Origin: Escherichia phage VEc3
DNA: 44,895 nt
Strand: one strand, 5' to 3'
Sequence record: NC_047899.1
Made by a program: the position numbers and the translations under genes. Shown here one piece after another: positions 3,447-44,895 of this stretch. The notes beneath the pieces were generated by a model. It was not told the origin of the DNA. It saw nothing but the letters and a program-made list of their open reading frames with translations, and did no database searches. The stretch's first letter is position 1. Each line of letters starts with the position of its first letter.

Positions 3447-6074
3447 ATGCAAGACCTACACGCTATTCAACTTCAACTTGAAGAAGAAATGTTTAACGGC
3501 GGTATCCGTCGCTTTGAAGCGGACCAACAACGCCAGATTGCATCCGGTAATGAATCAGACACGGCATGGAATCGCCGCTTATTGTCCGAGTTAATCGCGC
3601 CAATGGCTGAAGGCATTCAGGCATACAAGGAAGAGTATGAAGGTAAAAGAGGCCGTGCACCGCGTGCATTAGCTTTCATTAACTGCGTAGAAAACGAAGT
3701 GGCAGCATATATCACGATGAAAATCGTTATGGATATGCTGAACACGGATGTAACCTTGCAGGCTATAGCCATGAATGTAGCTGACCGCATTGAGGACCAA
3801 GTACGTTTTAGCAAGCTGGAAGGTCACGCCGCCAAATACTTTGAGAAAGTTAAGAAGTCACTTAAGGCAAGTAAGACTAAATCATATCGCCATGCGCACA
3901 ACGTAGCGGTCGTGGCTGAGAAGTCAGTAGCTGACCGTGACGCTGATTTCTCTCGCTGGGAGGCGTGGCCTAAAGATACCTTGCTACAAATTGGTATGAC
4001 CTTGCTAGAAATACTGGAAAATAGTGTATTCTTCAATGGTCAGCCTGTCTTTCTTCGCACCTTGCGCACTAATGGTGGCAAGCATGGCGTTTACTACTTA
4101 CAGACTAGCGAACACGTGGGTGAATGGATAACTGCATTTAAAGAGCACGTAGCTCAGCTGAGTCCAGCCTATGCGCCTTGCGTTATTCCTCCTCGTCCGT
4201 GGGTTTCTCCGTTTAATGGTGGCTTCCATACTGAGAAAGTAGCAAGCCGTATTCGTCTAGTAAAAGGCAATCGTGAGCACGTCCGCAAGCTGACCAAAAA
4301 GCAAATGCCAGCGGTTTACAAGGCTGTTAACGCTTTGCAGGCGACTAAGTGGCAGGTTAATAAAGAGGTTTTGCAGGTAGTAGAGGACGTTATTCATCTC
4401 GACCTTGGTTATGGTGTGCCTTCCTTTAAACCACTCATCGACCGTGAGAACAAGCCAGCTAATCCAGTGCCGTTAGAGTTCCAGCACCTGCGAGGCCGTG
4501 AATTGAAAGAGATGCTAACACCGGAGCAATGGCAGGCCTTCATCAACTGGAAGGGTGAATGTACTAAGCTGTATACCGCTGAGACTAAGCGCGGCAGCAA
4601 GTCGGCGGCGACCGTCCGCATGGTAGGACAGGCCCGTAAATACAGCCAGTTTGACGCTATTTATTTTGTATATGCACTGGATAGCCGTTCACGCGTTTAT
4701 GCGCAATCTAGCACGCTCTCGCCGCAATCAAACGACTTAGGCAAGGCATTGCTCCGTTTTACCGAAGGGCAGCGTCTTGATAGCGCTGAGGCGCTTAAGT
4801 GGTTTTTGGTGAACGGGGCGAATAACTGGGGTTGGGATAAGAAAACTTTTGACGTGCGCACCTCTAACGTGCTGGATGGCGAATTTCAAGACATGTGCCG
4901 CGACATTGCAGCCGATCCGCTGACCTTCACTCAATGGGTAAATGCTGATTCCCCTTACGGCTTCCTTGCATGGTGCTTTGAATATGCGCGTTATCTGGAT
5001 GCACTGGATGAAGGCACGCAAGACCAATTCATGACGCATCTACCCGTCCATCAAGACGGTAGTTGCTCTGGTATCCAGCACTATAGCGCGATGTTACGCG
5101 ATGAAGTAGGTGCGAAAGCAGTAAACCTTAAGCCTTCTGACTTCCCTCAAGATATTTATGGCGCAGTCGCGCAGGTTGTTATCCAGAAGAATTACGCCTA
5201 CATGAATGCAGACGATGCAGTGACTTTCACATCTGGAAGCGTCACACTTACAGGTGCAGAACTGCGTAGCATGGCTAGTGCGTGGGATATGATAGGAATC
5301 ACTCGCGGATTGACCAAAAAGCCCGTAATGACACTACCTTATGGCAGCACACGTCTAACCTGCCGTGAATCAGTGATTGATTATATCGTTGATTTGGAAG
5401 AAAAAGAGGCCCAACGAGCTATTGCGGAAGGGCGTACCGCCAATCCTGTACATCCTTTTGATAATGACCGTAAGGACAGCCTGACACCTAGTGCAGCTTA
5501 TAACTATATGACGGCTTTAATCTGGCCTTCTATTTCGGAAGTGGTTAAAGCTCCTATAGTGGCAATGAAAATGATTCGTCAGCTTGCCCGTTTCGCAGCT
5601 AAAAGGAATGAAGGCTTAGAGTATACCTTGCCTACTGGCTTCATCTTGCAACAAAAGATTATGGCTACCGACATGCTACGCGTATCCACTTGCTTGATGG
5701 GTGAAATCAAGATGAGTCTACAGATTGAGACTGATGTAGTGGATGAAACGGCTATGATGGGCGCTGCTGCTCCTAACTTTGTTCACGGGCATGATGCTAG
5801 TCATCTCATCCTGACTGTATGTGACCTCGTTGACAAGGGCATTACATCCATCGCAGTCATCCATGATTCTTTCGGTACTCACGCAGGCCGTACAGCCGAT
5901 CTACGTGATAGTCTAAGGGCAGAAATGGTGAAGATGTATCAAGGCCGTAATGCCCTGCAAAGCCTGTTAGATGAGCATGAAGAACGCTGGTTAGTAGACA
6001 CCGGAATCCAAGTGCCAGAGCAAGGAGAGTTTGACCTTAACGAAATCTTAGTATCTGACTATTGCTTCGCATAA
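3447..6074 (+). CDS. DNA-directed RNA polymerase, single-subunit, SP6-type
   Basis: 875 aa; begins [32 protein letters not shown] and contains [27 protein letters not shown] and IHDSFGTH motifs; ends ...DYCFA like T7-family RNAPs. Confidence 0.95.
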
Positions 6075-6395: not shown

Positions 6396-6812
6396 ATGCG
6401 TAAATCATTAGCTCAAAGAGTAGAGCAAGCAGGTTATACTATACAAGACGACGGTACTATCAAAGGTAAGCGAGGTAACATCTTGAAACCTTGGCTTCAA
6501 TCTTCAGGTTATCCAGTTGTAAATATAGTATTCAAGAAAGGTACAAAGACAACTACCCTTGTGCATCGCATAATTGCTAGTAAGTATTGTCCTTGCTCTG
6601 ACCCGTTGGCTAATGATGTAAACCACAAAGACGGAATCAAGACTAATAATGCAGCTTCTAATCTTGAATGGATTACACGTAGGCAGAACCGTAATCACTA
6701 TTTAGGTTTTGAGGACTATATGACACTTACGGCAGAGGATGCCCGTAAGAAGAATAATGAGCGCACTATTGCTCGACGTAAATTACTTAAACAGTTGAAT
6801 AATAAGGACTAA
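6396..6812 (+). CDS. HNH homing endonuclease
   Basis: 138 aa; VNHKDGIKTNNAASNLEWITRRQNRNH motif; AT-rich relative to neighbours. Confidence 0.85.
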   Translation: MRKSLAQRVEQAGYTIQDDGTIKGKRGNILKPWLQSSGYPVVNIVFKKGTKTTTLVHRIIASKYCPCSDPLANDVNHKDGIKTNNAASNLEWITRRQNRNHYLGFEDYMTLTAEDARKKNNERTIARRKLLKQLNNKD

Positions 6813-6949: not shown

Positions 6950-8938
6950 ATGGCTATTATTCAGAATGTACCGTGTCCTGCCTGTCAAAAGAATGGACAT
7001 GATATTACTGGCAACCATCTTATGATATTTGAGGATGGCGCTGGTTACTGTAACCGTGGTCACTTCCATGATAACGGTAAACCTTATTACCACAAGCCGG
7101 AAGGTGGCATCGAGATAACCGAGTTACCTATTACTGGCAATATCAAATATACACCTTCTCAATTCAAAGAAATGGAGAAGGAAGGGAAGATAAGCGACCC
7201 TAAGCTACGCGCCATCGCACTTGGTGGTATGCGTATGAAAGACCGTTGGGAGGTTATGAATGAGCAAGAAAGGGCAGACCAAGAAGCAGAGTGGAAACTT
7301 GATGTTGAATGGTTCCTCACGCTTAAGCGTAAGAACCTTGTATCCCGTCACATTCGAGGTGACATCGCAGCAATGTACGATGTGCGCGTTGGACACGATG
7401 AAGAGGGAAGAGTCAACCGTCACTATTATCCACGATATGAAAAGGGTGTGCTTGTTGGAGCAAAATGCCGGACGTTGCCGAAGGATTTTAAGTTCGGACA
7501 CCTAGGTAAACTCTTTGGTATGCAAGATCTTTTCGGTATGAACACTTTGTCTCACGTGTTAGACAAGGGGAGACGAAAGGATTGCTTGCTTATTGTAGGC
7601 GGTGAACTTGATGCACTAGCAGCGCAGCAGATGCTCCTTGATTCTGCCAAGGGTACTAAGTGGGAAGGCCAGCCATACCATGTATGGTCTGTCAACAAAG
7701 GTGAGTCTTGCCTTGAAGAGATAGTGCAGAACCGTGAGCATATCGCCCAATTCAAGAAGATTATTTGGGGCTTTGATGGGGATGGGGTTGGGCAGAAGCA
7801 GAACCAGCAAGCGGCTCGCCTGTTTCCCGGCAAATCCTATATCCTTGAATATCCTTCTGGTTGCAAAGATGCCAACAAGGCATTGATGGCTGGCAAGGCT
7901 AAAGAATTTGTGGATGCTTGGTTTAATGCAAAGTCATCTGATGAAGTCTTTGGTAGCCAGATTAAATCTATCGCATCTCAAAGAGATAAGCTCAAGGCTG
8001 CACGTCCAGAACAAGGGCTGTCATGGCCTTGGCCTAAGCTAAACAAGGTAACACTGGGTATCCGTAAGAACCAGCTTATCATTATAGGTGCAGGCTCTGG
8101 TGTAGGTAAGACTGAGTTCCTCCGTGAAGTAGTTAAGCATCTCATTGAAGAACACGGTGAATCTGTAGGCATCATTTCTACAGAAGACCCGATGGTCAAG
8201 GTGTCCCGTGCTTTTATCGGTAAGTGGATTGATAAGCGTATTGAGTTACCTCCAACCAATGACCCGAAAGAAGACGGATACCGTGAGGTGTTCGACTACA
8301 CCGAGGAAGAAGCTAACGCCGCCATTGATTATGTAGCTGATACAGGTAAGCTGTTTGTAGCTGACCTAGAAGGTGACTATTCGATGGAGAAGGTAGAGCA
8401 AACTTGCCTAGAGTTTGAGGCCATGGGTATTTCTAATATCATCATTGATAACTTAACGGGGATTAAATTAGATGAGCGTGCTTTTGGTGGGAAGGTTGGT
8501 GCACTTGATGAATGCGTCAAGCGGATTGGTACTATCAAAGACAGACACCCAGTTACTATATTCCTTGTATCACACCTTACACGTCCTCCGGCAAACCGTA
8601 CCCAACACGAAGAAGGTGGCGAGGTTATCCTTTCTGACTTCCGAGGCTCAGGAGCTATCGGATTCTGGGCATCTTACGCCTTGGGGATTGAGCGTAATAC
8701 AAGAGCTGAAACGCTTGACGAAAGGACTACCACGTATATCTCATGTGTCAAAGATCGCGACCAAGGTATCTTCACCGGAACCAAGATTATGCTTAAGGGT
8801 GATATTCAAACCGGACGTTTGAGAGAACCACAGGCTAGAACAAGGTCATTTGATACAGGTGAAGCAAGGCAACAAGAAGTGCCGGATTTACCGGACACTA
8901 TAGAAGAGACAACTTTTGACGATGAACAGGAGTTTTAA
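6950..8938 (+). CDS. DNA primase/helicase (gp4-like)
   Basis: 662 aa; N-terminal Cys4 zinc ribbon (CPACQ...CNRGHFH); Walker A GAGSGVGKT; acidic C-terminus ending ...DDEQEF. Confidence 0.9.
   Translation: MAIIQNVPCPACQKNGHDITGNHLMIFEDGAGYCNRGHFHDNGKPYYHKPEGGIEITELPITGNIKYTPSQFKEMEKEGKISDPKLRAIALGGMRMKDRWEVMNEQERADQEAEWKLDVEWFLTLKRKNLVSRHIRGDIAAMYDVRVGHDEEGRVNRHYYPRYEKGVLVGAKCRTLPKDFKFGHLGKLFGMQDLFGMNTLSHVLDKGRRKDCLLIVGGELDALAAQQMLLDSAKGTKWEGQPYHVWSVNKGESCLEEIVQNREHIAQFKKIIWGFDGDGVGQKQNQQAARLFPGKSYILEYPSGCKDANKALMAGKAKEFVDAWFNAKSSDEVFGSQIKSIASQRDKLKAARPEQGLSWPWPKLNKVTLGIRKNQLIIIGAGSGVGKTEFLREVVKHLIEEHGESVGIISTEDPMVKVSRAFIGKWIDKRIELPPTNDPKEDGYREVFDYTEEEANAAIDYVADTGKLFVADLEGDYSMEKVEQTCLEFEAMGISNIIIDNLTGIKLDERAFGGKVGALDECVKRIGTIKDRHPVTIFLVSHLTRPPANRTQHEEGGEVILSDFRGSGAIGFWASYALGIERNTRAETLDERTTTYISCVKDRDQGIFTGTKIMLKGDIQTGRLREPQARTRSFDTGEARQQEVPDLPDTIEETTFDDEQEF
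8886..8908 (+). promoter_or_regulatory. Phage RNAP promoter embedded in the primase/helicase 3' coding sequence
   Basis: ATTTACCGGACACTATAGAAGAG, full consensus; +1 G at 8903; encodes ...DLPDTIEE... Confidence 0.65.
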
Positions 8939-9099
8939 TGGAAATTATTAAACCAGTATTGAATATCGGTATTGAGATCCTATTCATGCTTGTGATCGCA
9001 GATTATGCTGCACGATATGGCTTCAAGAAAGCAGTGAAACTTATCGTTGCATCTGGTTTTATGATGTCAATGTTCTTTATTGTAACACGCCTTATCTAG
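8938..9099 (+). CDS. Small membrane protein (53 aa)
   Basis: ATG overlaps the primase stop (TAATG); two hydrophobic segments. Confidence 0.4.
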   Translation: MEIIKPVLNIGIEILFMLVIADYAARYGFKKAVKLIVASGFMMSMFFIVTRLI

Positions 9100-18682: not shown

Positions 18683-18856
18683 ATGGAAGGTAAACTGTAT
18701 AGAGGGTACTTCGGTAACTTATATAAAGTAAGCTCTCGCGGTTTTGTATTGACCTCTGATGATGAAGGTGCAATGTGGCACCTAAGTGCATATGGTTCTA
18801 ACTTAGCACACTTTAAAGAGGCAATAGTCAAAGGTGTGATGAAGGAGGTGAAATGA
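18683..18856 (+). CDS. Hypothetical protein (57 aa)
   Basis: ATG 18683 two nt after the upstream stop; track ORF 18665. Confidence 0.4.
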   Translation: MEGKLYRGYFGNLYKVSSRGFVLTSDDEGAMWHLSAYGSNLAHFKEAIVKGVMKEVK

Positions 18857-19800
18857 ACATCTTCCAATTCCTAGGTCTTCCAGAAGACCACCGCAATCAT
18901 CCATTCATGCTGGTGAAGCATCGCGGTGAAGTTCCTGAGAAGAAACTTACTTTTCCATGTTATGCACAGGTGAAACGAGATGGAATATTCAGTGCTGTTG
19001 TGGTGCGCAATGATGGTGCTGTTGCCGTCTTTGGTCGTACTGGTAAGAAGCTCGCAAATGTTGAAGCCTTGGAAAAGGCATTTAGTGTATTTCCTGTCGG
19101 GTTGTATCTTGGTGAGTTGCAATCTATGGCTGTTGATGTTTATCTTGAAGCTCTGTCAGGAGTGGTAAACCCTAATCGTACAGAGCCACTTGACTTTATA
19201 GGCCAGCAGATTAAAGACAACCTGTATATCGACTTCTTTGATATGTTAACCATTAAGGCATTCCATGATGGATTCACTGATGTTTCTTATCTCAAACGTT
19301 ACGATGCTTTACATCGTCGCATCGGCACTCATCTTAGCGGGTACAACGCTATCCTTCCTATTACTCCTTGCCATAATGAGCGAGAAGTTGAAGCGTTTGC
19401 GCAAGAGCAAATAGATGCAGGCCGAGAGGGTGCTGTGTTTAAACTTGACGTGGAGTATGAAAGTGGGCACAAGGGCTATCGTCAAACGAAGATCGTTCGT
19501 ATGGTGTCTTACGACCTAACCTGTATTGGGTGGGAGGAAGGAAAAGGTAAGTATAAAGGTAAAGTAGCTAACCTCATTTTCAAATGGAAAGGAGGCAAGT
19601 CTGTTAAGGCTATGCTGGGTCGTGGCTGGTCACATGAGGATGCAGCCCAAATGTATCACGATATTAAGCACGGTGGCGAACTGAACGTCATTGGGAAGAT
19701 CTTCGCTGTCAAGGCGTTGCAGGAATCTAGCAAGGGAGTCCTGAGACTTCCCAAGGTTTCTGAATTACGCCACGATAAGGAGGTTCCTGATGTTTATTGA
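18853..19800 (+). CDS. ATP-dependent DNA ligase
   Basis: 315 aa; KxDG adenylation motif in YAQVKRDGIF; overlapping ATGA start. Confidence 0.8.
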   Translation: MNIFQFLGLPEDHRNHPFMLVKHRGEVPEKKLTFPCYAQVKRDGIFSAVVVRNDGAVAVFGRTGKKLANVEALEKAFSVFPVGLYLGELQSMAVDVYLEALSGVVNPNRTEPLDFIGQQIKDNLYIDFFDMLTIKAFHDGFTDVSYLKRYDALHRRIGTHLSGYNAILPITPCHNEREVEAFAQEQIDAGREGAVFKLDVEYESGHKGYRQTKIVRMVSYDLTCIGWEEGKGKYKGKVANLIFKWKGGKSVKAMLGRGWSHEDAAQMYHDIKHGGELNVIGKIFAVKALQESSKGVLRLPKVSELRHDKEVPDVY

Positions 19801-19915
19801 TTTGAACGAAAAACAGCTTGAATTGTTAATAGAAGCCATTGAGCAATACTATTATATGTGGGGCTATCAGTCAGAAGAATTAGACTCCTTATATTCACAA
19901 CTAAAAGGAGGTTAA
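19790..19915 (+). CDS. Small ORF (41 aa), hypothetical
   Basis: AAGGAGG RBS 6 nt upstream of ATG 19790. Confidence 0.4.
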   Translation: MFIDLNEKQLELLIEAIEQYYYMWGYQSEELDSLYSQLKGG

Positions 19916-19917
19916 TT

Positions 19918-20115
19918 ATGTCTTTTGATTCTATGAAGGCAACTCGTGCTGTTGAGGTAGCAGAGGCCATCTTCGAAACTCTATCCTGTGGCATGGAAGT
20001 GCCATATACTTTACTGGCTGATGCAGAAGAACTTGGTCTTTCTGTAGAAGCTATCCAAGAGAAGGTTGACGAATTATATGGTACAGACGAAGAAGAAACC
20101 GACGATTTCATTTGA
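19918..20115 (+). CDS. Small acidic protein (65 aa)
   Basis: ATG 19918 with AAGGAGG RBS; acidic C-terminus EEETDDFI; track ORF 19858 is over-extended. Confidence 0.5.
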   Translation: MSFDSMKATRAVEVAEAIFETLSCGMEVPYTLLADAEELGLSVEAIQEKVDELYGTDEEETDDFI

Positions 20116-31607: not shown

Positions 31608-34600
31608 ATGGAACAAGACATTAAGACTAATTGGGCTGGATATGTCCAGTCTACTCCTGAGCCGTTTTCTATTGAGGCGGCTCCGGTATCGGCTCCTACG
31701 ATACGCCAGCGTAATGAGTTACAAGAGCAAGTTCTTGAAGCTAAAGCTGATGCTGATATCTTAGGTGCTGTAGGTGCTGCCTTCCAGAAGGAGTGGTTGG
31801 CATTCGGAGGCAAGCGGTGGTATGACCGTGCCACTGCTGATTTCACACCTCAACCAGACTTCGAGATACAACCTGAGCAACGTGAAGCACTACGTTTCAA
31901 ATATGGTACAGATATGATGCAGACAATCACTGAGGGTGTTCGTTCTGAGGATGAATTGAACTTCCGTATTCAGAATGCTGATGAAGACCTTGAGCGCAAT
32001 AAGCGCATTGCTCAGGCTGGCTGGGTTGGCTCTGTGGCGACGATTGGCGCTGCTGTGCTTGACCCTGTGGGATGGGTTGCCTCTATTCCAACCGGTGGTG
32101 CCGCTAAAGTTGGACTCGTAGGCCGTGCTGTGCGTGGCGCTATCGCCGCTGGCGTAAGTAATGCCGCTATTGAATCCGTATTGGTCCAAGGTGACATGAC
32201 TCGTGATTTAGATGACATTATGGTAGCACTAGGCTCCGGTATGGCTATGGGTGGCGTTATTGGAGCTGTAGCGCGTGGTAGGGCCACTAAGCTCAGTGAG
32301 CAAGGAGATGACAGGGCTGCGAGCATTGTGCGCAGTGCAGACGCAGGGGACCGCTATGTGCGTGCTGTTGCTGATGATAGTATCGGTGCGATGCGTGTTA
32401 AGGGTGAAGAGTTACTCACTGAGGGTGCATTTGATATCTCTAGCAAAGGTGAAGATTTGCTGAAAACCCTACAGCGGGAAGGTAATGCAATTGATATGAC
32501 CCCTCGCCGCTGGGCCGGAACTCTGTCTGCCCTTGGTACTGTCGTACATTCCTCTCAGGATGCAAGTGTACGCGGCCTTGGTGCTCGCCTGTTTGAGTCC
32601 CCCCAAGGCTTAGGTATGCAGAAGGCATCTGCTAGTCTCATGCAGAATACTAACTTGAACCGTCTGAAATCTGCTGATATGAATCGTTTCAACGATGGGT
32701 TCGATTTATGGCTCAAAGAGAATAATATCAACCCGGTTGCAGGTCATACTAACTCTCACTATGTGCAGCAATATAATGAGAAGGTATGGGAAGCTGTACG
32801 CATCGGTATGGATGAGTCTACGCCTAAGTCTATCCGTATGGCAGCAGAGGGGCAGCAAGCTATGTATCGTGAAGCATTAGCATTACGTCAACGCTCTGGT
32901 GAAGCTGGGTTTGAAAAGGTTAAAGCAGATGATAAGTACATGCCTGATATTTTTGACAGTATGAAGGCTCGTCGTCAATTCAGTATGCACGATAAAGAGG
33001 ACATCATTGAGTTATTCTCTCGTGCATACCAGAATGGTTCTCGTAAGGTTCCAAAGGAAGTGGCTGATGATATTGCACGAGCACAAGTAAACCGCGTTGC
33101 TGATGCCACCTTGACCGGACAGCTTAGCTTTGAAAAGGCTATGTCTGGTCAAACCAAAGCAGAATATGAAGCACTAATGCGCAAAGCAGGCTTTAGTGAT
33201 GAAGAGATTGAAAAGATGGTAGAAGCTCTGGATAATAAAGAAACCAGAGATAATATCTCTAACCGAGCTAAGATGAGTTTAGGCTTAGATGTTACTCAAG
33301 AGTACAATGGCATTCGTATGCGTGACTTTATGAACACTAACGTGGAAGAGTTAACAGATAACTACATGAAGGAAGCGGCAGGTGGTGCTGCCTTGGCTCG
33401 TCAAGGTTTCTCTACCTATCAGGCTGCACTTAATGCAATTGATCTTGTAGAGCGAAATGCACGAAATGCAGCTAAAGATACAAAAGCACACGCACAATTT
33501 GAAGCGGAGTCGGCTAAGATCCGTCAATCAGAGCCTGATTACAAGAAGGCACAAGAGAAGATTGAAGAGTTAAAGAAGCGACTTAAATTGAAAGAGAAAG
33601 ATGAAGCAGCTGGTCTGGCTATTGATGAAGAAATCCGTCAGATGCGAGAAGGGCTTCGCTTGATTATGGGTAAATCTATCGATTCAAACCCACAAGATTT
33701 GTCTACTAAAATGCTGCGTCGTGGGCGTGACATTACAGGTGTACTTCGCTTAGGTCAGATGGGCTTCGCACAGCTAGGTGAACTTGCTAACTTCATGGGT
33801 GAGTTTGGTATTGCTGCCACCACTATGGCTTTAGGTAAGCAATTCCGCTTCACCTCTAAGGCGTTGCGTAATGGCGATGGCTTCTTTCGAGATAAGAATT
33901 TAGCTGAGGTTGAGCGAATGGTAGGTTACATTGGTGAAGACAACTGGCTGACAACTAAGGGTGCGCGTCCCGATGAGTTTGGTGATGTAACCACAGTGCG
34001 AGGTATGATGGCCCATTTTGACCAGTCCATGAACTCTATACGACGTGCTCAGACAAACCTATCCCTCTTCCGCATGGCACAGGGTTCTCTGGAGCGAATG
34101 ACCAATAGGCAAATAGCTTTGTCTTTCATTGACCACCTTGAAGGCAAGAAGATTATTCCTCAGAAGAAACTGGAGGAACTTGGTCTTACTCAGGAGTTCA
34201 TGACTAACCTACAGAAGCACTATGATGCTAACTCTAAAGGTTCTGGCTTGCTTGGCTTTGATACAATGCCTTATGCCATGGGTGAAACTTTAGCTAATGC
34301 TATTCGTCGTAAGTCAGGTCTAATTATCCAACGTAACTTCATTGGTGATGAAGGTATCTGGATGAACAAAGCACTAGGTAAGACATTTGCACAGCTTAAG
34401 TCATTCTCTCTTGTATCTGGTGAGAAGCAATTTGGTCGAGGGATTCGCCACGATAAAATTGGTCTTGCTAAGAAGACAGCTTATGGTTTTGCTTTGGGTT
34501 CAATAGTGTATGCGGCAAAAGCCTATGTGAACTCTATTGGTCGAGAAGACCAAGATGAATATTTGGAAGAGAAGTTATCGCCTAAAGGGTTGGCCTTTGG

Positions 34601-34916: not shown

Positions 34917-35878
34917 TGAGTTATACTTTCACAGAACATATAGCCAACGGTACGCAAGTAACCTATCCCTTTAGCTTTGCTGGTAGGGATAAAGGTTATC
35001 TTCGTGCCTCAGATGTGATAGTGGAGTCTCTTCAAGGTAACACTTGGATTGAGGTTACATCTGGCTGGCAACTAACTGGCACGCACCAGATTACTTTTGA
35101 TGTAGCACCAGTTGCAGGTTTGAAGTTCCGTATTCGAAGGGAAGTACAAAAGGAGTATCCATACGCTGAGTTTGACCGTGGTGTTACCTTGGATATGAAG
35201 TCTTTAAATGGTTCTTTCATTCATATACTGGAGATTACACAGGAGTTACTTGACGGGTTTTATCCAGAAGGATACTTCATTAAACAGAATGTAAGCTGGG
35301 GCGGCAATAAGATTACTGATTTGGCTGATGGCACAAATCCTGGAGATGCAGTAAATAAAGGGCAGCTTGATGCCATCGACAAGAAGCATACAGATTGGAA
35401 CGCCAAACAGGACATTGAGATTGCTGGCCTTAAGGCTGGTATGACTTCTGGTATTGCGCACAGTTCTATTCCTTGGTACACGATAGCCAAAGGTGGTGAG
35501 GTTTCCGTAAAACCACCTTATGAATTTCAAGATGCACTAGTTTCCCTTAATGGGGTATTGCAGCACCAAATTGTAGGCGCATACTCTATAAGCAACAACA
35601 CTATCACTTTCGCAGAGCCGCTTGTGGCGGGTACAGAGGTGTATGTGGTGATTGGTAGTCGTGTGGCTACATCTGAACCTACTATTCAGTCAGAGTTGAA
35701 CTTTGACTTAATAGAAGGCCAACAAGTAGTACAGATTGGCTCTGCATTTAAGTACATTGAGGTCTACCTTGATGGATTATTACAACCTAAACTTGCTTAT
35801 CAGGTAGACGGTGACATTGTTACTTTCTCAGAAAGAGTACCAGAATGCCGGATGACTGCTAAGATTATCACAGCATAA
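34916..35878 (+). CDS. Tail fiber/tailspike adaptor protein (gp17 N-domain-like)
   Basis: 320 aa; N-terminal region resembles the T7 gp17 tail-attachment domain. Confidence 0.7.
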   Translation: MSYTFTEHIANGTQVTYPFSFAGRDKGYLRASDVIVESLQGNTWIEVTSGWQLTGTHQITFDVAPVAGLKFRIRREVQKEYPYAEFDRGVTLDMKSLNGSFIHILEITQELLDGFYPEGYFIKQNVSWGGNKITDLADGTNPGDAVNKGQLDAIDKKHTDWNAKQDIEIAGLKAGMTSGIAHSSIPWYTIAKGGEVSVKPPYEFQDALVSLNGVLQHQIVGAYSISNNTITFAEPLVAGTEVYVVIGSRVATSEPTIQSELNFDLIEGQQVVQIGSAFKYIEVYLDGLLQPKLAYQVDGDIVTFSERVPECRMTAKIITA

Positions 35879-35887
35879 GGAGGTGGG

Positions 35888-36082
35888 ATGATTAACTCCG
35901 AACTGGTAGATAGTGGTGTGAAGCTTGCGCCACCTGCACTCGTATCAGGTGGGTACTTCCTCGGTATCAGTTGGGATAATTGGGTGTTAATAGCAACATT
36001 CATTTATACCGTGTTGCAAATTGGGGACTGGTTTTATAATAAGTTCAAGATTTGGAGGGAGAAGCGTGAGCGTACACAATAA
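35888..36082 (+). CDS. Holin (class II-like)
   Basis: 64 aa; two hydrophobic segments and charged C-terminus KIWREKRERTQ; AAGGAGG RBS. Confidence 0.55.
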   Translation: MINSELVDSGVKLAPPALVSGGYFLGISWDNWVLIATFIYTVLQIGDWFYNKFKIWREKRERTQ

Positions 36083-36365
36083 ACATGCAGCTACAGAGGA
36101 CGAGGTTGGCATTCTGCATGGTGCTATTACCAAAATCTTCAATAAGAAAGCACAGGCAATACTGGACACTATAGAAGAAGACCCTGATGCAGCATTACAT
36201 TTAGTGTCTGGTAAGGATATTGGTGCGATGTGTAAGTGGGTTCTTGATAACGGCATTACCGCCACACCTGCTGCACAGCAGGAAGAGTCCAAGTTATCTA
36301 AGCGCCTCAAGGCTATCCGAGAGGCATCCAGTGGTAAGATAATTCAGTTTACAAAAGAGGAGTGA
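36066..36365 (+). CDS. Terminase small subunit (gp18-like), start uncertain
   Basis: GTG 36066 with GGAGGG RBS preferred; track ATG 36021 is the alternative; position between holin and terminase large subunit. Confidence 0.45.
   Translation: MSVHNKHAATEDEVGILHGAITKIFNKKAQAILDTIEEDPDAALHLVSGKDIGAMCKWVLDNGITATPAAQQEESKLSKRLKAIREASSGKIIQFTKEE
36157..36179 (+). promoter_or_regulatory. Phage RNAP promoter embedded in the terminase small subunit CDS
   Basis: GGCAATACTGGACACTATAGAAGAAG; +1 G at 36174; encodes ...AILDTIEED. Confidence 0.55.
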
Positions 36366-36366
36366 T

Positions 36367-36810
36367 ATGCATAGATGGTGTGAATCTCAAGGTTATACCA
36401 TCTTACCTTCTGGTGTCATCCTTTCAAAGGGTGGCACCCCTCTCAAACCATTCAAGGCGGGTAGGGGTTATTTAGCAGTTAAAATTAAAAATAAAGAAGG
36501 TAAATGGCGTAATGTCTATGTTCATCAATTAGTGGCTTATAAGTATTTACCTAAAACTAATAATGAAGTAAACCACAAAGACGGCGATAAGCACAACAAT
36601 GATGTTAGCAACTTGGAGTGGGTAACAAGAAGCGAGAATAACTATTTAAAATGCAATGGAAATGATAGGAGTGCCTTAAATAGCTATTTAGCAAGATTAA
36701 AAGATTGCTTCTTGCAAGGTAAGGGTGTAGCAGAAACCGCTAGACTTACTGGTAAAAGTGAACCAAGAGTTTCTTCTCTCTTTAAGGAGTGGCGAAATGG
36801 CAAAGGCTAG
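36367..36810 (+). CDS. HNH homing endonuclease inserted between the terminase genes
   Basis: 147 aa; VNHKDGDKHNNDVSNLEWVTRSENN motif; strongly AT-rich; paralogous in design to the HNH at 6396. Confidence 0.85.
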   Translation: MHRWCESQGYTILPSGVILSKGGTPLKPFKAGRGYLAVKIKNKEGKWRNVYVHQLVAYKYLPKTNNEVNHKDGDKHNNDVSNLEWVTRSENNYLKCNGNDRSALNSYLARLKDCFLQGKGVAETARLTGKSEPRVSSLFKEWRNGKG

Positions 36811-38695
36811 AGAATCACAGGCAGAGGCATTAAAGCGGTGGGAAAACCTTAAAGAACTACAAGACACTTTTAAATATACAGCGGAAGGTTTGCTTCTCTT
36901 TGCAGATACAGTTATTCATAACTTAATTGCAGGCAACCCTCATCTGATTCGTATGCAGGCGGATATCTTGAAGTTCCTATTTTACGGACACAAGTACCGC
37001 CTCATCGAAGCGCCTCGTGGTATCGCTAAGACAACACTATCAGCAATCTATACGGTATTCCGTATTATTCATGAACCGCATAAGCGTATCATGGTTGTGT
37101 CCCAAAACGCCAAGCGAGCAGAGGAAATCGCAGGTTGGGTAGTTAAAATCTTCCGTGGCTTAGACTTTCTTGAGTTTATGCTGCCGGATATCTACGCTGG
37201 GGACCGTGCATCCGTTAAGGCGTTTGAGATTCATTACACCCTACGTGGTAGTGATAAGTCTCCTTCTGTATCCTGTTACTCAATCGAAGCAGGTATGCAG
37301 GGTGCTCGTGCTGATATTATTCTAGCGGATGACGTAGAGTCGATGCAGAATGCTCGTACGGCAGCGGGCCGTGCCTTGCTTGAGGAACTGACTAAGGAGT
37401 TTGAATCTATCAACCAGTTTGGGGATATCATTTACCTTGGTACACCTCAGAACGTAAACTCTATCTACAACAACCTACCTGCTCGTGGTTACTCTGTTCG
37501 TATCTGGACTGCGCGTTACCCTTCAGTAGAGCAAGAGCAATGTTATGGCGACTTCCTTGCACCTATGATTGTTCAAGATATGAAGGACAACCCAGCACTT
37601 CGCTCAGGGTACGGGTTGGATGGTAATAGTGGTGCACCTTGTGCCCCTGAAATGTATGATGATGAAGTCCTGATTGAGAAGGAAATCTCTCAGGGTGCTG
37701 CTAAGTTCCAGCTTCAGTTCATGCTTAACACTCGCATGATGGATGCTGACAGATACCCATTACGCCTGAACAATCTAATCTTCACCTCGTTTGGTACAGA
37801 GGAAGTCCCTGTGATGCCTACGTGGAGTAATGATTCCATAAACATCATTGGTGATGCACCTAAGTACGGTAACAAGCCTACGGATTTCATGTACAGACCT
37901 GTAGCTCGCCCATACGAATGGGGTGCTGTCTCCCGCAAGATTATGTATATTGACCCTGCGGGTGGTGGTAAGAACGGAGATGAGACGGGTGTAGCCATCG
38001 TATTCCTGCACGGCACATTCATTTATGTGTATCAGTGCTTTGGTGTACCTGGCGGATACCGAGAGTCGTCCCTGAATCGCATTGTGCAGGCCGCAAAGCA
38101 GGCGGGTGTTAAAGAGGTATTCATTGAGAAGAACTTTGGTCATGGCGCGTTTGAGGCGGTAATTAAGCCGTACTTTGAACGAGAGTGGCCTGTAACTCTG
38201 GAAGAAGATTACGCCACCGGACAGAAAGAATTGCGTATCATTGAGACGCTGGAGCCGCTCATGGCAGCCCATAGGCTTATCTTCAATGCAGAGATGGTGA
38301 AGTCAGACTTTGAGTCGGTACAGCACTATCCGCTTGAACTACGCATGTCCTACAGTCTTTTCAATCAAATGTCGAACATAACGATTGAGAAGAACAGCCT
38401 ACGGCACGATGACCGCCTAGACGCCCTGTATGGTGCTATACGGCAATTAACTTCTCAGATAGACTATGACGAGGTTACACGGATTAATCGCCTCAGAGCG
38501 CAGGAGATGCGAGATTACATCCATGCTATGAACACACCTCATCTACGCAGGGCAATGCTATATGGGGATTACGGTACTGAGCGAAGAGTGACCAACACTT
38601 CCGTAGCGATGCAGCAGCGAGTTTACGGGCAGAGCTACCGAAATAAATCGGCAAGCAGAAATACACTTTCTGCAAGGATTTCAAGGACTTATTAA
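36797..38695 (+). CDS. Terminase large subunit (gp19-like)
   Basis: Walker A-like GIAKTT, YLGTPQ, FMLN, HDDRLDAL blocks as in T7 gp19; ATG 36797 with AAGGAG RBS preferred over track start 36758. Confidence 0.92.
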   Translation: MAKARESQAEALKRWENLKELQDTFKYTAEGLLLFADTVIHNLIAGNPHLIRMQADILKFLFYGHKYRLIEAPRGIAKTTLSAIYTVFRIIHEPHKRIMVVSQNAKRAEEIAGWVVKIFRGLDFLEFMLPDIYAGDRASVKAFEIHYTLRGSDKSPSVSCYSIEAGMQGARADIILADDVESMQNARTAAGRALLEELTKEFESINQFGDIIYLGTPQNVNSIYNNLPARGYSVRIWTARYPSVEQEQCYGDFLAPMIVQDMKDNPALRSGYGLDGNSGAPCAPEMYDDEVLIEKEISQGAAKFQLQFMLNTRMMDADRYPLRLNNLIFTSFGTEEVPVMPTWSNDSINIIGDAPKYGNKPTDFMYRPVARPYEWGAVSRKIMYIDPAGGGKNGDETGVAIVFLHGTFIYVYQCFGVPGGYRESSLNRIVQAAKQAGVKEVFIEKNFGHGAFEAVIKPYFEREWPVTLEEDYATGQKELRIIETLEPLMAAHRLIFNAEMVKSDFESVQHYPLELRMSYSLFNQMSNITIEKNSLRHDDRLDALYGAIRQLTSQIDYDEVTRINRLRAQEMRDYIHAMNTPHLRRAMLYGDYGTERRVTNTSVAMQQRVYGQSYRNKSASRNTLSARISRTY

Positions 38696-38716
38696 TTACT
38701 GGACACTATAGAAGGA
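38694..38716 (+). promoter_or_regulatory. Phage RNAP promoter (AATTACTGGACACTATAGAAGGA)
   Basis: Consensus core; +1 G at 38711; leader contains hairpin GGGTGTAC-TCCT-GTACACCC. Confidence 0.7.
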
Positions 38717-38860
38717 AGGCCCAGATAATAAGAGAAAATAATAGGTAATATATAGGTTAACCTAGGTTATATAGGTATGCCTTAGTATGGGTGTACTCCT
38801 GTACACCCTATTCATTACTACCTTACTACCTTACTATATTTACATAATAGGAGAGAGACA

Positions 38861-39139
38861 ATGGCTAATGATTATAGTAGTCAACCATTAACAGGTAAGT
38901 CTAAGAGAAAGCAGGTACAACTTGTAAGTGAAGAACTAATGCTTCCGGTAATCAAAAAAGAGGAAGCTAGTAAGAAAAGCAATGTCATTAATGATGCCAC
39001 CAAATCAGGTAAACAGAAAGGGGCCATGGTGTGCCTTGAAGCGGAAGGTGGTGTATTGAAGATTGCTATCGCGGTTGATGGCAAAGAAGATTCAGAGTGG
39101 AAGTTAGTAACAGTGGGAACCACTGTTACCCCAGTTTAA
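38861..39139 (+). CDS. Small protein, paralog A (92 aa)
   Basis: Shares SGKQKGAMV-LE...IA-A...W...TP with the adjacent ORF; strong RBS. Confidence 0.6.
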   Translation: MANDYSSQPLTGKSKRKQVQLVSEELMLPVIKKEEASKKSNVINDATKSGKQKGAMVCLEAEGGVLKIAIAVDGKEDSEWKLVTVGTTVTPV

Positions 39140-42455: not shown

Positions 42456-44159
42456 ATGCTTCAAAGATTAGGCTCCAAATTAGTCTCATCTAAAGTTTCA
42501 CACTATGGTGTTTCTAGGGTACTATCAGATAAACTAGATGAAATAGTTACACCATTAGATATTAATAGTGGCAATTCATTAGTTCAAGCTATGGCTGCAT
42601 CTGGTAATAGGTTCTCCGTGTTTAACTCAACAGATACCTTCAAGATTACAGTAGGCGATGGTGGAGACTATTCAACTTTGTACGAAGCCATAGAGGGTGC
42701 TTGCAAAATGCGACCTACCTATAAAGAAGGTAAGAGCTATTGTGAAATCTCTCTTAAAAGAGGCTTTATATTAAGAGAGCAATTGGAGTTCACGGGAGGT
42801 TTTGACTTATCTTGGATTAAGATAACATCTGAAGATGAAGTAGTGTATGCAGATACTTCGTCCTTTACAAAGAAAGTAAGACATTACTATGAGTATAAGT
42901 ACCTGTTCCTATTTACAGAAGGTACAAAGAGTCCTATCTTCTCTATATTGATTCAAGAAAACAGAGATGATAGTGATGTTTGTGCCTTTATGATTACAAG
43001 GTTTGCAGAGCTTAATTTCTGGCCTGGATCTGGTGCACGTAAGTTTTATGTGGGTGTAGATTCTCAGTTTGGATGCTGGATTAAAGGCTACCACACTGGG
43101 TCTGCACCGGACAAGACTGCTGTAGATAAATATCAACCACCGGGGTACTTCCTCTGCGACTTTTCTGATAGCAGATATAATGCCATCATGGCTTACTCTA
43201 GTTATGTACACCTTCCTTGTAGTAAGTTTGATAGAAGTGGTAATAGTTTTAATCAACCCTCTGTTACATGTATTTATAATACAGTTGCACACTTTCAAGG
43301 ATCTTCTGCCAAAGATTGCTACATAGGTTGGAATATACGATATGGAGCACATGTTAACATGCGAGATCATCAAACTACCAACTGTACATACAGAGGTCTT
43401 ACTTGTATACATGGAGTCTTTGTAGATGCAAGACGTCACGATGTGGAAGGGACAGACATACCGACAAGCGGTAAGGTATTAAATCCAGAAGAGCAGAATG
43501 GCTTCTATGGGTGTTTAACAGGTGTGCAAGTAGACGGTGCAACTATTGTAGATCTAGCAGGGAATGATATGCGAAACTGTGGTACTACTATTAAATGCGA
43601 TAACGGTGCTGTGGTTTCAGCTAAAGGATTGGACGTATCTGGAGCTAAGACTATGGTTTTCCAATGCCAAGGTGGCTCAACTGTAGCTTGTCCTAGGTTA
43701 TGGGCAGACAACATCAAACAATTATGTGTGTTACGTTATGACTCAAAAGTAACAAGCCGTTGGGCTACAATAACTACACATACTAAGTTTGAGCAGCTTA
43801 GTCGTTTCTGTGATGCAGATATGTCAAGTCATTTAACTCTATCTGACTCCAAGATAGATGGAGATATAGCATTCTTTGCTGGTAACTCATCTACTATCTC
43901 TATCTCTGGTTCAAGTACGGTTAAAGTAAGAGCCTTTAGATCATTTACTGGTTCTAAGGTTACTCTATCTGGTATTACTTATAACCCTGAGTATGCTAAG
44001 GCTGTATCACCAGAAGAACTACAATTTAGGATTTCTCAAGGAGGGATTATAGCAATGAACCCTATCACCATCTCCGATGGGTCTGTGCCTATCTTGTCTA
44101 AACCACGTAATACCTTATCAGATGCAGGTATTATCTTCTCTGCGGTAGGTAATATCTGA
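42456..44159 (+). CDS. Tailspike 2 / second receptor-binding protein, Cys-rich, AT-rich
   Basis: 567 aa; AAGGAGG RBS; terminal position as in two-tailspike SP6/K1-5-like phages; no domain recognised. Confidence 0.55.
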   Translation: MLQRLGSKLVSSKVSHYGVSRVLSDKLDEIVTPLDINSGNSLVQAMAASGNRFSVFNSTDTFKITVGDGGDYSTLYEAIEGACKMRPTYKEGKSYCEISLKRGFILREQLEFTGGFDLSWIKITSEDEVVYADTSSFTKKVRHYYEYKYLFLFTEGTKSPIFSILIQENRDDSDVCAFMITRFAELNFWPGSGARKFYVGVDSQFGCWIKGYHTGSAPDKTAVDKYQPPGYFLCDFSDSRYNAIMAYSSYVHLPCSKFDRSGNSFNQPSVTCIYNTVAHFQGSSAKDCYIGWNIRYGAHVNMRDHQTTNCTYRGLTCIHGVFVDARRHDVEGTDIPTSGKVLNPEEQNGFYGCLTGVQVDGATIVDLAGNDMRNCGTTIKCDNGAVVSAKGLDVSGAKTMVFQCQGGSTVACPRLWADNIKQLCVLRYDSKVTSRWATITTHTKFEQLSRFCDADMSSHLTLSDSKIDGDIAFFAGNSSTISISGSSTVKVRAFRSFTGSKVTLSGITYNPEYAKAVSPEELQFRISQGGIIAMNPITISDGSVPILSKPRNTLSDAGIIFSAVGNI

Positions 44160-44591: not shown

Positions 44592-44895
44592 CTCGCCCTC
44601 GCCCTCGCCGGGTTGTCCCCATAGGGTGGCCTGAGGGAATCCGTCGAAGACGGGCAGGGCTGATGTACTCCTTGTACTAGCTTAGTAGTACACAAGGGCA
44701 GGCCGTACTAGTTAGCTGGTACAGCCTAGTCTTTGCTCATGTACTAGCAAGGTGGAACGCTGGAGAGCGCCTAGGACGGCCTAGGGCACGCCTTAGTGTT
44801 GGACAAGGTGAATGCCTTAGTGAAGCCTCTTAGTGCATTCCTGAGGCCATTCAGGGCGTTTATGAGGTATTGACAGGGTGGGCGTGGGTGGGCTA
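44592..44895. repeat. Right direct terminal repeat (DTR), 304 bp
   Basis: Exact copy of 1-304 at the window end; typical of T7-like linear genomes. Confidence 0.95.

What the first reader, a model, noticed from the sequence alone, without database searches (positions are those of the whole stretch)
36367..36810. HNH endonuclease inserted between the terminase small and large subunit genes, with a promoter inside the small subunit gene
An AT-rich 147-aa HNH gene sits exactly between the two terminase genes and overlaps the large subunit start by 14 nt. A phage promoter (36157-36179) is embedded in the small subunit coding sequence just upstream. HNH proteins adjacent to terminase genes are in some phages required for packaging, and in others are selfish homing elements; the composition shift favours a mobile origin, but a co-opted function is possible.
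Basis: partly seen in the sequence, partly recalled or inferred. Interest (0 to 1): 0.55.

Follow-up and report, generated by a model that had tools for sequence, protein, structure and literature searches.

The report
Mobile HNH homing-endonuclease cassette between terminase genes
A selfish, I-HmuI-like HNH homing-endonuclease gene sits between the two DNA-packaging genes of this K1-5-like coliphage and travels with a recoded start of the large terminase gene; it is an ordinary kind of element, though a clean natural example.

Summary
A 147-aa HNH_3 gene (36367-36810) lies between TerS (36066-36365) and TerL (36797-38695), overlaps TerL by 14 nt, and has 38% GC against 45% for the genome.

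The window is a complete Vectrevirus (K1-5-like) genome with 304-bp terminal repeats. Only 16 of 80 related phage records carry this HNH. K1-5 itself has an empty site where the TerS stop and TerL start overlap (TGATG). The gene is therefore dispensable for packaging.

Near this site, the window differs from K1-5 by a 432-nt insertion, 5 substitutions at the TerS 3' end, and a dense recoded patch in TerL (29 changes in 36802-36880). The whole cassette is 100% identical in phages whose flanking TerL is 7-9% diverged, which indicates recent horizontal spread. The protein models as I-HmuI-like, keeps its catalytic residues, and is under purifying selection (dN/dS 0.12-0.18).

A 59%-identical orthologue in another clade sits at the same junction and also has a recoded TerL 5' end. 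Both patches destroy a covarying hairpin found at the TerL 5' end of HNH-less phages.

The promoter match is real, but it is identical in HNH-less K1-5, so it is ancestral and not part of the insert.

Verdict: a free-standing homing endonuclease cassette, a new member of a known kind. Cleavage and its target site are inferred, not shown.

The parts
36066..36365 (+). Terminase small subunit gene (99 aa, GTG start). Its TGA stop lies 1 nt before the HNH start.
   Evidence: PF11123 E 5.9e-16 and phrog_891. Coordinates follow the annotated K1-5 and KMB47 genes.
36157..36179 (+). SP6/K1-5-type phage RNA polymerase promoter-like site inside TerS. It is ancestral and not part of the insert.
   Evidence: Matches the window's own promoter consensus. 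It is identical in HNH-less K1-5 and present in about 12 of 14 Vectrevirus loci while neighbouring codons vary. It is absent in more distant relatives that encode the same peptide.
36347..36362 (+). Left edge of the converted tract: 5 substitutions in the last 6 TerS codons (4 synonymous, plus D99E). This stretch also provides the GAGGAG ribosome-binding site for the HNH.
   Evidence: In 35900-37300 the only other difference from K1-5 to the left of the insert is 35942. These changes are not strictly linked to the HNH: PhiNW-E1 keeps K1-5-like bases at four of the positions.
36367..36810 (+). Free-standing HNH_3 (I-HmuI-like) homing endonuclease gene, 147 aa. Relative to K1-5 it is a net insertion of 432 nt.
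   Evidence: Pfam and PHROG matches. PDB I-HmuI 1u3e by sequence, E 5.4e-6. AF2 model with pLDDT 93.5, whose only significant Foldseek hit is 1u3e (E 2.5e-6). dN/dS 0.12-0.18.
36514..36642 (+). HNH (beta-beta-alpha-metal) catalytic core, residues 50-92. It includes H70, N82 and N91.
   Evidence: Family-invariant residues H53, H70, D72, N77, N82, L83, E84 and W85 are retained. N91 aligns with the I-HmuI residue that I recall as metal ligand N96, and H70 with I-HmuI H75 (for the alignment; residue roles are from memory).
36667..36795 (+). C-terminal helical DNA-binding region (helix-turn-helix, residues about 101-143).
   Evidence: Helices H101-116, H121-128 and H132-143 in the model. There are weak sigma-70 region 4 and HTH similarities (6dxo; HTH folds; HTH Pfam hits for the orthologues).
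36784..36789 (+). AAGGAG ribosome-binding site for TerL, encoded inside the HNH 3' end. It replaces the AAGGAGG that lies in the TerS 3' end of HNH-less phages.
   Evidence: Direct reading of the junctions.
36797..38695 (+). Terminase large subunit gene (632 aa). Its first 14 nt overlap the HNH.
   Evidence: PF22530 and phrog_17672 / phrog_15524. The start is conserved in all relatives.
36802..36880 (+). Recoded patch in the TerL 5' end. It differs from K1-5 at 29 nt, with 20 of 27 codons changed (15 synonymous and 5 replacements: A13K, M17N, Q19K, Q23D, P26K). GC is 38% against 51% in K1-5. It is the inferred cleavage-resistant allele of the endonuclease target, and it abolishes the TerL 5' hairpin of HNH-less phages.
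   Evidence: The patch is found in exactly the 16 phage records that carry the HNH and in none of the others. Loss of the hairpin is shown.

Best explanation
The ORF is a free-standing homing endonuclease gene of the I-HmuI-like HNH_3 family. It has an N-terminal beta region, an HNH catalytic core and a C-terminal helix-turn-helix.

It forms a roughly 530-nt mobile cassette (window 36347-36880) made of three parts: 5 recoded positions at the TerS 3' end, the HNH ORF, and a recoded first 85 nt or so of TerL. The cassette sits exactly where the TerS stop and TerL start overlap (TGATG) in HNH-less Vectrevirus phages such as K1-5.

Inferred mechanism. The gene is transcribed late with the terminase genes and translated from its own GAGGAG site 1 nt after the TerS stop. 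During mixed infection the enzyme nicks or cuts the HNH-less allele in or near the conserved 5' end of TerL. Recombinational repair from the HNH-carrying genome then copies the cassette, and variable lengths of flank, into the cut genome. The carrier is protected because its own TerL 5' end is recoded. The cassette also carries a new ribosome-binding site for TerL and removes a 5' hairpin, so TerL can still be made. The gene is not needed for packaging.

Shown: presence/absence polymorphism, exact boundaries, identity of the cassette across diverged backbones, the fold, the catalytic residues, and purifying selection.

Inferred: nuclease activity, nick versus double-strand break, location of the target in TerL, and the protective role of the patch.
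For: 1. **Polymorphic and dispensable.** 80 phage records match the region and 16 carry this HNH. The rest, K1-5 included, have TerS and TerL directly abutting.

2. **Near-isogenic filled and empty pair.** Between 35900 and 37300, window and K1-5 differ only at 35942, at 5 positions in 36347-36362, by the 432-nt insertion, and at 29 positions in 36802-36880. Outside the patch, TerL shows 3 differences in about 1060 nt.

3. **Horizontal spread.** Mt1B1_P10 has no mismatch to the window from 36264 to 36915, while its flanks differ by 7-9% (14 differences in 163 nt on the left, 87 in 1140 nt of TerL). T147P9, PDP21P6, LI10P5 and ten further contigs show similar patterns with mosaic flanks, and breakpoints often fall at 36881-36916. 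Both TerL haplotypes also occur without the cassette.

4. **Enzyme looks functional.** HNH_3 match. I-HmuI is the only significant PDB match, both by sequence (E 5.4e-6) and by fold (E 2.5e-6 over 164 columns, model pLDDT 93.5). Family-invariant catalytic residues are retained. dN/dS among variants is 0.12-0.18.

5. **Orthologue with the same feature.** A 59%-identical HNH (P0002, loci L033 and L034) in a different clade occupies the same junction. It likewise carries a recoded first 90 nt or so of TerL: 27-28 differences in 90 nt, then about 1 per 30 nt, compared with its HNH-less relatives. Most of those changes are synonymous.

6. **A hot spot for selfish nucleases.** The packaging module carries a third HNH lineage at the same junction (L005, mutPK1A2), another HNH between holin and TerS in EC120, and a group I intron with a GIY-YIG-like ORF in TerL of relatives. 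This fits published surveys showing that homing endonuclease genes cluster at terminase genes (PMC10448857).
Against: - No cleavage assay exists, so activity and target site are inferred.
- The perfect linkage of HNH and patch (16 of 16 carriers, none of the rest) would arise under any model. The two are contiguous, with no shared homology between them for a crossover.
- The patch could simply be donor TerL sequence that came in with the first transfer. Its AT-rich composition matches the HNH, and its divergence of about 37% is similar to divergence between genera.
- The patch also removes a conserved mRNA hairpin, so part of the recoding may serve TerL expression rather than immunity.
- General recombination is very active in these mosaic phages and could spread the cassette without any endonuclease.
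- A near-invariant family His (alignment position 94) is Leu in this protein and in its orthologue.
- Frameshifted copies exist in mutPK1A2 and L035, showing that decay happens, unless these are sequencing errors.
- The third HNH lineage at the same site has no recoded TerL patch.
Confidence: 0.75

Rival explanations
1. Domesticated packaging helper. The HNH assists the terminase in cutting or maturing DNA, as HK97 gp74-type HNH proteins do next to terminase genes in cos phages.
For: The position is immediately between TerS and TerL, it is co-transcribed and overlaps TerL, and it is under purifying selection. The literature notes that HNH genes next to terminases can act in cos cleavage, and that homing and helper roles need not exclude each other (PMC10448857).
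Against: - 64 of 80 relatives, including near-identical K1-5, lack it.
- The genome has exact 304-bp direct terminal repeats, meaning T7-type packaging rather than cos ends.
- The family is HNH_3 / I-HmuI-like with an HTH domain. No PF01844 match was returned at E <= 0.01.
- At least three divergent HNH lineages occupy the same site.
Confidence: 0.03
2. Passive passenger. The HNH is a formerly mobile gene that no longer homes. The cassette spreads only through the ordinary high-frequency homologous recombination of T7/SP6-like phages, and the recoded TerL patch is just donor sequence carried along.
For: - Flanks are heavily mosaic everywhere in these genomes.
- The patch resembles the HNH in composition, and its divergence is comparable to divergence between genera.
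- HNH-patch linkage is expected from contiguity alone.
- A family-conserved His94 is replaced by Leu.
- Frameshifted copies exist.
Against: - dN/dS of 0.12-0.18 indicates the protein is maintained.
- The main catalytic residues are intact and the I-HmuI-like model is confident.
- The cassette is 100% identical over about 570-650 nt in backbones that are 7-9% diverged, with breakpoints close against its edges.
- The orthologous cassette in another clade has the same boundaries and its own recoded patch.
Confidence: 0.15
3. The recoded TerL patch is mainly an expression adaptation, not an immunity determinant. HNH-less phages have a hairpin at TerL nt 9-39 and a TGATG stop/start overlap, which would couple TerL translation to TerS. 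With an HNH placed in between, the hairpin had to be removed so that TerL can initiate on its own.
For: - The hairpin is supported by covariation: 90% of cells are paired, 3 pairs show compensatory changes, 0 of 500 shuffles reach the observed value, and slid controls give 31-58%.
- It is predicted in K1-5, L017 and the type-B carrier L005, whose HNH stop overlaps the TerL ATG as TGATG.
- It is absent in both recoded alleles, where the start region is unusually unstructured (z = +1.7).
Against: - The hairpin covers only nt 9-39 of TerL, but recoding runs to nt 84-90 in both lineages.
- Breaking an 8-bp stem needs one or two changes, not 29.
- Coupling and hairpin function are untested.
- This reading is compatible with the main explanation rather than exclusive of it.
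Confidence: 0.25

Closest known systems
I-HmuI / I-HmuII (HNH homing endonucleases of Bacillus phages SPO1 and SP82; PDB 1u3e)
   Same: Same Pfam family (HNH_3). It is the only significant PDB match by sequence and by fold across the whole length. The layout is shared: N-terminal beta region, HNH core, C-terminal helix-turn-helix. The equivalent catalytic His and Asn are present. From my own knowledge, I-HmuI and I-HmuII nick one strand, and competition between them excludes flanking markers of the rival phage. That parallels the several HNH lineages competing for one site here.
   Different: I-HmuI is encoded inside a group I intron in a DNA polymerase gene. This gene is free-standing between two genes, is shorter (147 against 174 aa), and shares only 24% identity. 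The His preceding residue is Asn rather than Asp. Nicking and target specificity are untested here.
Free-standing homing endonucleases of T4-like phages (SegF, SegG, MobE) and 'intronless homing'
   Same: The gene is intergenic and next to an essential conserved gene. It is polymorphic among close relatives and carries co-converted flanking sequence. The carrier's allele of the neighbouring gene differs from the HEG-less allele. The comparison with Seg and Mob systems rests on my own knowledge.
   Different: Seg proteins are GIY-YIG enzymes. MobE is an HNH enzyme, but I did not compare it here. The host is an SP6/K1-5-like podovirus. The divergent stretch is unusually dense (20 of 27 codons) and starts right at the insertion point.
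Homing endonuclease genes clustered at terminase genes and 'HEG islands' (Barth, Dunham and Seed 2023, PMC10448857)
   Same: HEGs, HNH_3 types included, lie near or within terminase genes. Cognate sites are occupied by different HEG homologues in related phages, and nuclease genes mark recombination boundaries. All of this is seen here.
   Different: That work centres on ICP1, T4 and other lineages. I found no published treatment of this Vectrevirus junction. GenBank records only label the gene 'HNH homing endonuclease' or 'hypothetical protein'.
HK97 gp74-type terminase-associated HNH endonucleases
   Same: A small HNH protein encoded next to terminase genes.
   Different: The Pfam family differs. 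The gene is not conserved among relatives. The phage has terminal repeats rather than cos ends. The gene sits between TerS and TerL rather than upstream of TerS at the cos end. The features of gp74 are taken from my own knowledge and from PMC10448857.

Membership tests
HNH_3 / I-HmuI-like HNH endonucleases | Significant match to the HNH_3 profile above Pfam's gathering threshold | tested here: met
   PF13392, 43.4 bits against a cut-off of 24.8, E 2.6e-11, residues 50-92.
HNH_3 / I-HmuI-like HNH endonucleases | Catalytic His, structural Asn and metal-binding Asn of the beta-beta-alpha-metal motif are present | tested here: met
   H70, N82 and N91 are retained, and H70 and N82 are invariant in a 38-sequence family alignment. 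H70 and N91 align with I-HmuI H75 and N96. One near-invariant His (position 94) is Leu.
HNH_3 / I-HmuI-like HNH endonucleases | I-HmuI-like fold with a C-terminal helix-turn-helix DNA-binding module | tested here: met
   AF2 model with pLDDT 93.5 and pTM 0.78. Foldseek against PDB gives 1u3e at E 2.5e-6, probability 1.00, 164 aligned columns. The next hits, all above E 0.5, are HTH domains.
Free-standing homing endonuclease gene (mobile, selfish) | Presence/absence polymorphism at a fixed site among close relatives, with an intact empty site | tested here: met
   16 of 80 records carry it. K1-5 has the empty TGATG junction on a near-identical backbone.
Free-standing homing endonuclease gene (mobile, selfish) | Evidence of horizontal movement: the element's history is discordant with that of its flanks | tested here: met
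   The cassette has no mismatch over 36264-36915 while the flanks are 7-9% diverged. Flanks are mosaic in ten further contigs. Both flank haplotypes are found with and without the cassette.
Free-standing homing endonuclease gene (mobile, selfish) | Site-specific cleavage of the element-less allele, and resistance of the carrier allele | not testable with these tools
   The only evidence is indirect: dense recoding of the TerL 5' end in carriers, and in the orthologous cassette of another clade.
Free-standing homing endonuclease gene (mobile, selfish) | Super-Mendelian inheritance in mixed infection that depends on the nuclease | not testable with these tools
   This needs co-infection crosses, for example this phage against K1-5, with wild-type and H70A versions.
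HK97 gp74-like terminase-associated HNH (packaging helper) | Conserved in all related phages as part of the packaging module | tested here: not met
   Absent from 64 of 80 related records.
HK97 gp74-like terminase-associated HNH (packaging helper) | Phage with cohesive (cos) ends whose cleavage needs the HNH | tested here: not met
   The window has exact 304-bp direct terminal repeats and a T7-type terminase (PF22530).
SP6/K1-5-type phage RNA polymerase promoter (the site at 36157-36179) | Match to the genome's own promoter consensus on the transcribed strand | tested here: met
   18 of 21 positions match ATTTACTGGACACTATAGAAG, and the core is identical to 9 other + strand sites.
SP6/K1-5-type phage RNA polymerase promoter (the site at 36157-36179) | Conserved as a DNA element beyond what the coding sequence requires | tested here: inconclusive
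   The core is unchanged in about 12 of 14 Vectrevirus loci while adjacent codons vary. Two loci have a core substitution. More distant relatives encode the same peptide without the motif. Transcription initiation is untested, and the K1-5 and SP6 genome papers could not be read.

The most novel reading that the evidence does not exclude
The cassette is more than an endonuclease gene. It is a self-contained replacement module that carries its own recoded copy of the first 85 nt or so of the essential TerL gene. That copy would do two jobs at once. It would protect the carrier against cleavage. It would also rewire TerL translation, by deleting a conserved, covarying 5' hairpin that couples TerL to TerS in HNH-less phages and supplying a new ribosome-binding site inside the HNH. 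The hairpin-forming, doubly constrained sequence (protein and RNA structure) would then be the endonuclease's recognition site, which would explain why two diverged HNH lineages both carry recoded versions of it.
Probability: 0.3. Interest if true: 0.45.

Novelty: new member of a known kind. Interest (0 to 1): 0.3.

Why it matters
Free-standing homing endonucleases next to terminase genes are well known, so the finding itself is ordinary. The locus does have practical value.

- **An experimental system.** K1-5 (empty site) and this phage (filled site) are almost identical around the junction. That gives a ready-made pair for testing intronless homing, co-conversion and marker exclusion in SP6/K1-5-like podoviruses, which are used for phage therapy and engineering.
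- **Mixing of therapeutic phages.** The element could bias inheritance of the adjacent terminase and tail-fibre or tailspike regions when such phages are combined.
- **Annotation.** The recoded TerL 5' end and the loss of a conserved hairpin show how a selfish insert can be accommodated in a tightly overlapped essential operon. Annotators should note three points. The HNH is not a packaging component. The promoter in TerS is ancestral. The TerL start is ATG 36797, not the upstream in-frame GTG at 36758.

Tried and rejected
- **Packaging-helper reading.** Rejected on distribution, genome ends and protein family.
- **Promoter brought in by the insert.** Rejected, because the site is identical in K1-5.
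- **Klebsiella phage cp4.** It has a 46%-identical HNH at record position 345-752, which I suspected was the same junction because the record might start at TerS. The neighbouring ORFs are small early-type genes, not TerL, so it is a different site.
- **'Type C' lineage.** The IMG/VR locus L005 first looked like a separate lineage. It is the intact form of the mutPK1A2 HNH, which is frameshifted in that record.
- **Positions changed in both recoded patches.** I looked for positions invariant in all HNH-less alleles but changed in both patches, hoping to pin down the recognition site. Only 3 such positions were found, too few to define a site.
- **Patch without the HNH.** I found no genome that has the recoded patch without the HNH. 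There were no such records among the phage records, and a degenerate exact-pattern scan of JGI metagenome contigs found nothing at all.
- **SD-sequestering hairpin at the HNH start.** None stood out (z = -0.7).
- **Sigma-70 promoters and terminators.** Nothing above chance in 35500-39000.
- **Literature.** I found no paper discussing this HNH. The SP6 genome paper is not held.

Full report
**What the window is.** The 44,895-nt window is a complete genome of a K1-5-like coliphage (genus Vectrevirus, Autographiviridae). Its first 304 nt are repeated exactly at its end. It aligns with K1-5 along its whole length at 81-96% identity, apart from a few indels and a replaced tailspike region. The region of the finding matches 80 phage records, nearly all Vectrevirus.

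**Checking the observation.**
- The ORF 36367-36810 encodes 147 aa. It matches Pfam HNH_3 (PF13392, E 2.6e-11, above threshold) and PHROG HNH families.
- Upstream is the small terminase subunit (PF11123, phrog_891). By comparison with annotated relatives it runs from GTG 36066 to 36365.
- Downstream is the large subunit, starting at ATG 36797 (MAKARES..., conserved in every relative). The 14-nt overlap with the HNH stop (36808-36810) is exact.
- The HNH has 38% GC against 45% for the genome (z = -1.9). Only 3% of equally long windows are as AT-rich.
- The site at 36157-36179 is a genuine match to the phage's own SP6-type promoter consensus ATTTACTGGACACTATAGAAG. About a dozen copies lie on the + strand, against 0.39 expected by chance.

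**The promoter is not part of the insert.** The same 34 nt around the site are identical in K1-5, which has no HNH. The core is present in about 12 of 14 Vectrevirus loci regardless of HNH status, while neighbouring codons vary. More distant relatives encode the same peptide with other codons and lack the motif. It is therefore an ancestral, probably functional, late promoter that would drive TerL, and the HNH when present. It deviates from consensus at three upstream positions and may be weak. Initiation was not tested, and I could not read the original SP6 and K1-5 papers.

**Filled and empty sites.**
- Only 16 of the 80 records carry this HNH, always at this junction. Ten further contigs that encode the identical protein place it in the same position.
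- In K1-5 and the other HNH-less phages, the TerS stop and the TerL start overlap as TGATG or TAATG.
- K1-5 is almost isogenic with the window here. Between 35900 and 37300 the two differ only at 35942, at five positions in 36347-36362 (the last TerS codons), by a net 432-nt insertion, and at 29 positions in 36802-36880.
- Beyond the patch, TerL has 3 differences in about 1060 nt.
- The unit that differs is therefore a cassette of about 530 nt (36347-36880), not just the ORF.

**The recoded TerL patch.**
- 20 of TerL codons 2-28 are changed: 15 synonymously and 5 with replacements (A13K, M17N, Q19K, Q23D, P26K). GC falls from 51% to 38%.
- The HNH-less sequence of this stretch is conserved at protein level even in other genera.
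- The patch occurs in exactly the 16 records that carry the HNH and in no other.
- This perfect linkage is expected under any model, because patch and HNH are contiguous with no homology between them. The informative facts are the density of the recoding and its recurrence.
- A 59%-identical orthologue (P0002; loci L033 and L034) in a different clade sits at the same junction with the same boundaries. It too has a recoded first 90 nt or so of TerL: 27-28 differences in 90 nt, then about 1 per 30 nt, compared with its HNH-less relatives, and nearly all synonymous.
- Whether the two patches arose independently or descend from one ancestral cassette cannot be decided.
- A third lineage at the same site has no TerL patch. 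It is intact in L005, frameshifted in mutPK1A2, and 36-46% identical to the window's protein.

**Evidence of movement.** The cassette is identical to the window's in phages whose flanks are diverged.
- Mt1B1_P10 has no mismatch from 36264 to 36915, but 14 differences in the 163 nt to the left and 87 in the first 1140 nt of TerL.
- T147P9, PDP21P6, LI10P5 and several metagenomic contigs show the same pattern with mosaic flanks, and right-hand breakpoints often lie just past the patch at 36881-36916.
- Both TerL haplotypes exist with and without the cassette.
- Older variants of the cassette also exist: AAPEc6 at 96.5% and PhiNW-E1 at 91% identity. In PhiNW-E1 four of the five left-edge changes are absent. 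This points to the TerL side, not the TerS side, as the part that matters.

**The protein.**
- I-HmuI (PDB 1u3e) is the only significant solved relative, both by sequence (E 5.4e-6) and by fold.
- A confident AlphaFold model (pLDDT 93.5) matches 1u3e over 164 columns at E 2.5e-6. The next, non-significant hits are helix-turn-helix domains.
- Family-invariant residues, including H70 and N82, are kept, as is the near-invariant N91. One near-invariant His (position 94) is Leu here and in the orthologue.
- Among type-A variants dN/dS is 0.12-0.18, so the protein is maintained by selection.

**A feature found on the way.**
- In HNH-less phages, TerL nt 9-16 pair with nt 32-39 (GGCAAGAG...CTCTTGCC). 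The fold is more stable than shuffles (z = -2.6).
- Across 18 distinct HNH-less sequences, 90% of cells are paired. Three pairs show compensatory changes, 0 of 500 shuffles reach the observed value, and slid controls give 31-58%.
- The hairpin is predicted in K1-5, L017 and the type-B carrier L005. It is destroyed in the window, in PhiNW-E1 and in L033. In the window the TerL start region is also unusually unstructured (z = +1.7); PhiNW-E1 and L033 are close to their shuffles (z = -0.24 and +0.57).
- The cassette also supplies a new AAGGAG for TerL inside the HNH 3' end.
- Part of the recoding may therefore keep TerL translatable once the TerS-TerL coupling is broken.
- This explains nt 9-39 but not the recoding out to nt 84-90.

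**Most likely explanation.** The element is a free-standing I-HmuI-like homing endonuclease cassette that spreads among co-infecting Vectrevirus phages. It would cut or nick the HNH-less allele in or near the conserved TerL 5' end and be copied in during repair, with the recoded TerL 5' end protecting the carrier. Polymorphism, boundaries, horizontal spread, fold and selection are shown. Cleavage, its position and the protective role of the patch are inferred.

**Rivals.**
- **Packaging helper of the HK97 gp74 type.** Excluded for practical purposes by distribution, terminal repeats and family.
- **Passive passenger spread by general recombination.** Possible, but disfavoured by purifying selection and by conversion tracts that hug the cassette tightly.
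- **Patch as an expression adaptation.** A partial explanation that is compatible with the main one.

**Comparison with what is known.**
- The protein meets the tested criteria for the HNH_3 / I-HmuI family.
- As a mobile element, it meets the comparative criteria (polymorphism, empty site, discordant history). The biochemical and genetic criteria cannot be tested here.
- It resembles the intronless homing systems of T4-like phages, and fits the published pattern of endonuclease genes clustering at terminase genes, with different homologues at cognate sites (PMC10448857).
- GenBank records already label the gene 'HNH homing endonuclease' in some phages. I found no paper analysing it.
- It is a new member of a known kind, of modest interest. 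Its main value is as a clean natural system: K1-5 against this phage.

Noticed in passing
window 6396-6812 (+): A second HNH_3 gene (138 aa, PF13392 E 2.6e-8, GC 38.6%) lies between the RNA polymerase and primase/helicase genes. It corresponds to a 430-nt insertion absent from K1-5. It shares the N-terminal GYTI...G.I motif with the terminase-junction HNH, and it resembles the HNH that follows the RNA polymerase gene in Proteus phage PM 93 (P0010).
   Followed up: partly
HNH-less relatives, TerL nt 9-39 (e.g. L001 1994-2024; L017 4314-4344); equivalent to window 36805-36835: A conserved 8-bp hairpin sits just after the TerL start codon in HNH-less SP6/K1-5-like phages. It has compensatory changes in 3 pairs (90% paired; 0 of 500 shuffles). 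It is destroyed in the two HNH lineages that carry a recoded TerL 5' end. It may couple TerL translation to TerS.
   Followed up: partly
L008 3368-3575 and ORF 3620-4153; same arrangement in L017-L020 and L034: In several relatives TerL is split after about codon 389-405 by a group I intron (Rfam RF00028, 64.8 bits, above the gathering score of 50). It is followed by a 177-aa ORF with weak GIY-YIG and I-HmuI NUMOD-like matches. The window has no such intron.
   Followed up: partly
L003 (Escherichia phage EC120) 1697-2128: EC120 carries a further HNH-type gene (143 aa, with VNHKD...NLEW motifs and a C-terminal HTH-like end) between the holin and TerS genes. TerS is thus flanked by two endonuclease genes, and the holin C-terminus differs.
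   Followed up: no
L004 (mutPK1A2) 1990-2420; L035 4300-4743: Some HNH copies are frameshifted. The mutPK1A2 copy of the type-B HNH is split into 110- and 37-aa ORFs. A metagenomic type-A copy has lost one A from an A5 run (window 36488-36492). This is either decay of the element or homopolymer sequencing error.
   Followed up: partly
window 1-304 and 44592-44895: Exact 304-bp direct terminal repeats show that the window is a complete linear genome.
   Followed up: yes
window 8934-9097, 18685-18849, 19736-19918, 33480-33609, 42484-44159: These are further segments with no K1-5 counterpart in the whole-genome comparison. The last one replaces the second tailspike region, so host capsule specificity probably differs.
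   Followed up: no
window 36758 (GTG) versus 36797 (ATG): The mechanical ORF list extends TerL to an in-frame GTG at 36758 (645 aa). Comparison with relatives shows the true start is ATG 36797 (632 aa). Likewise TerS starts at GTG 36066, not TTG 36021.
   Followed up: yes
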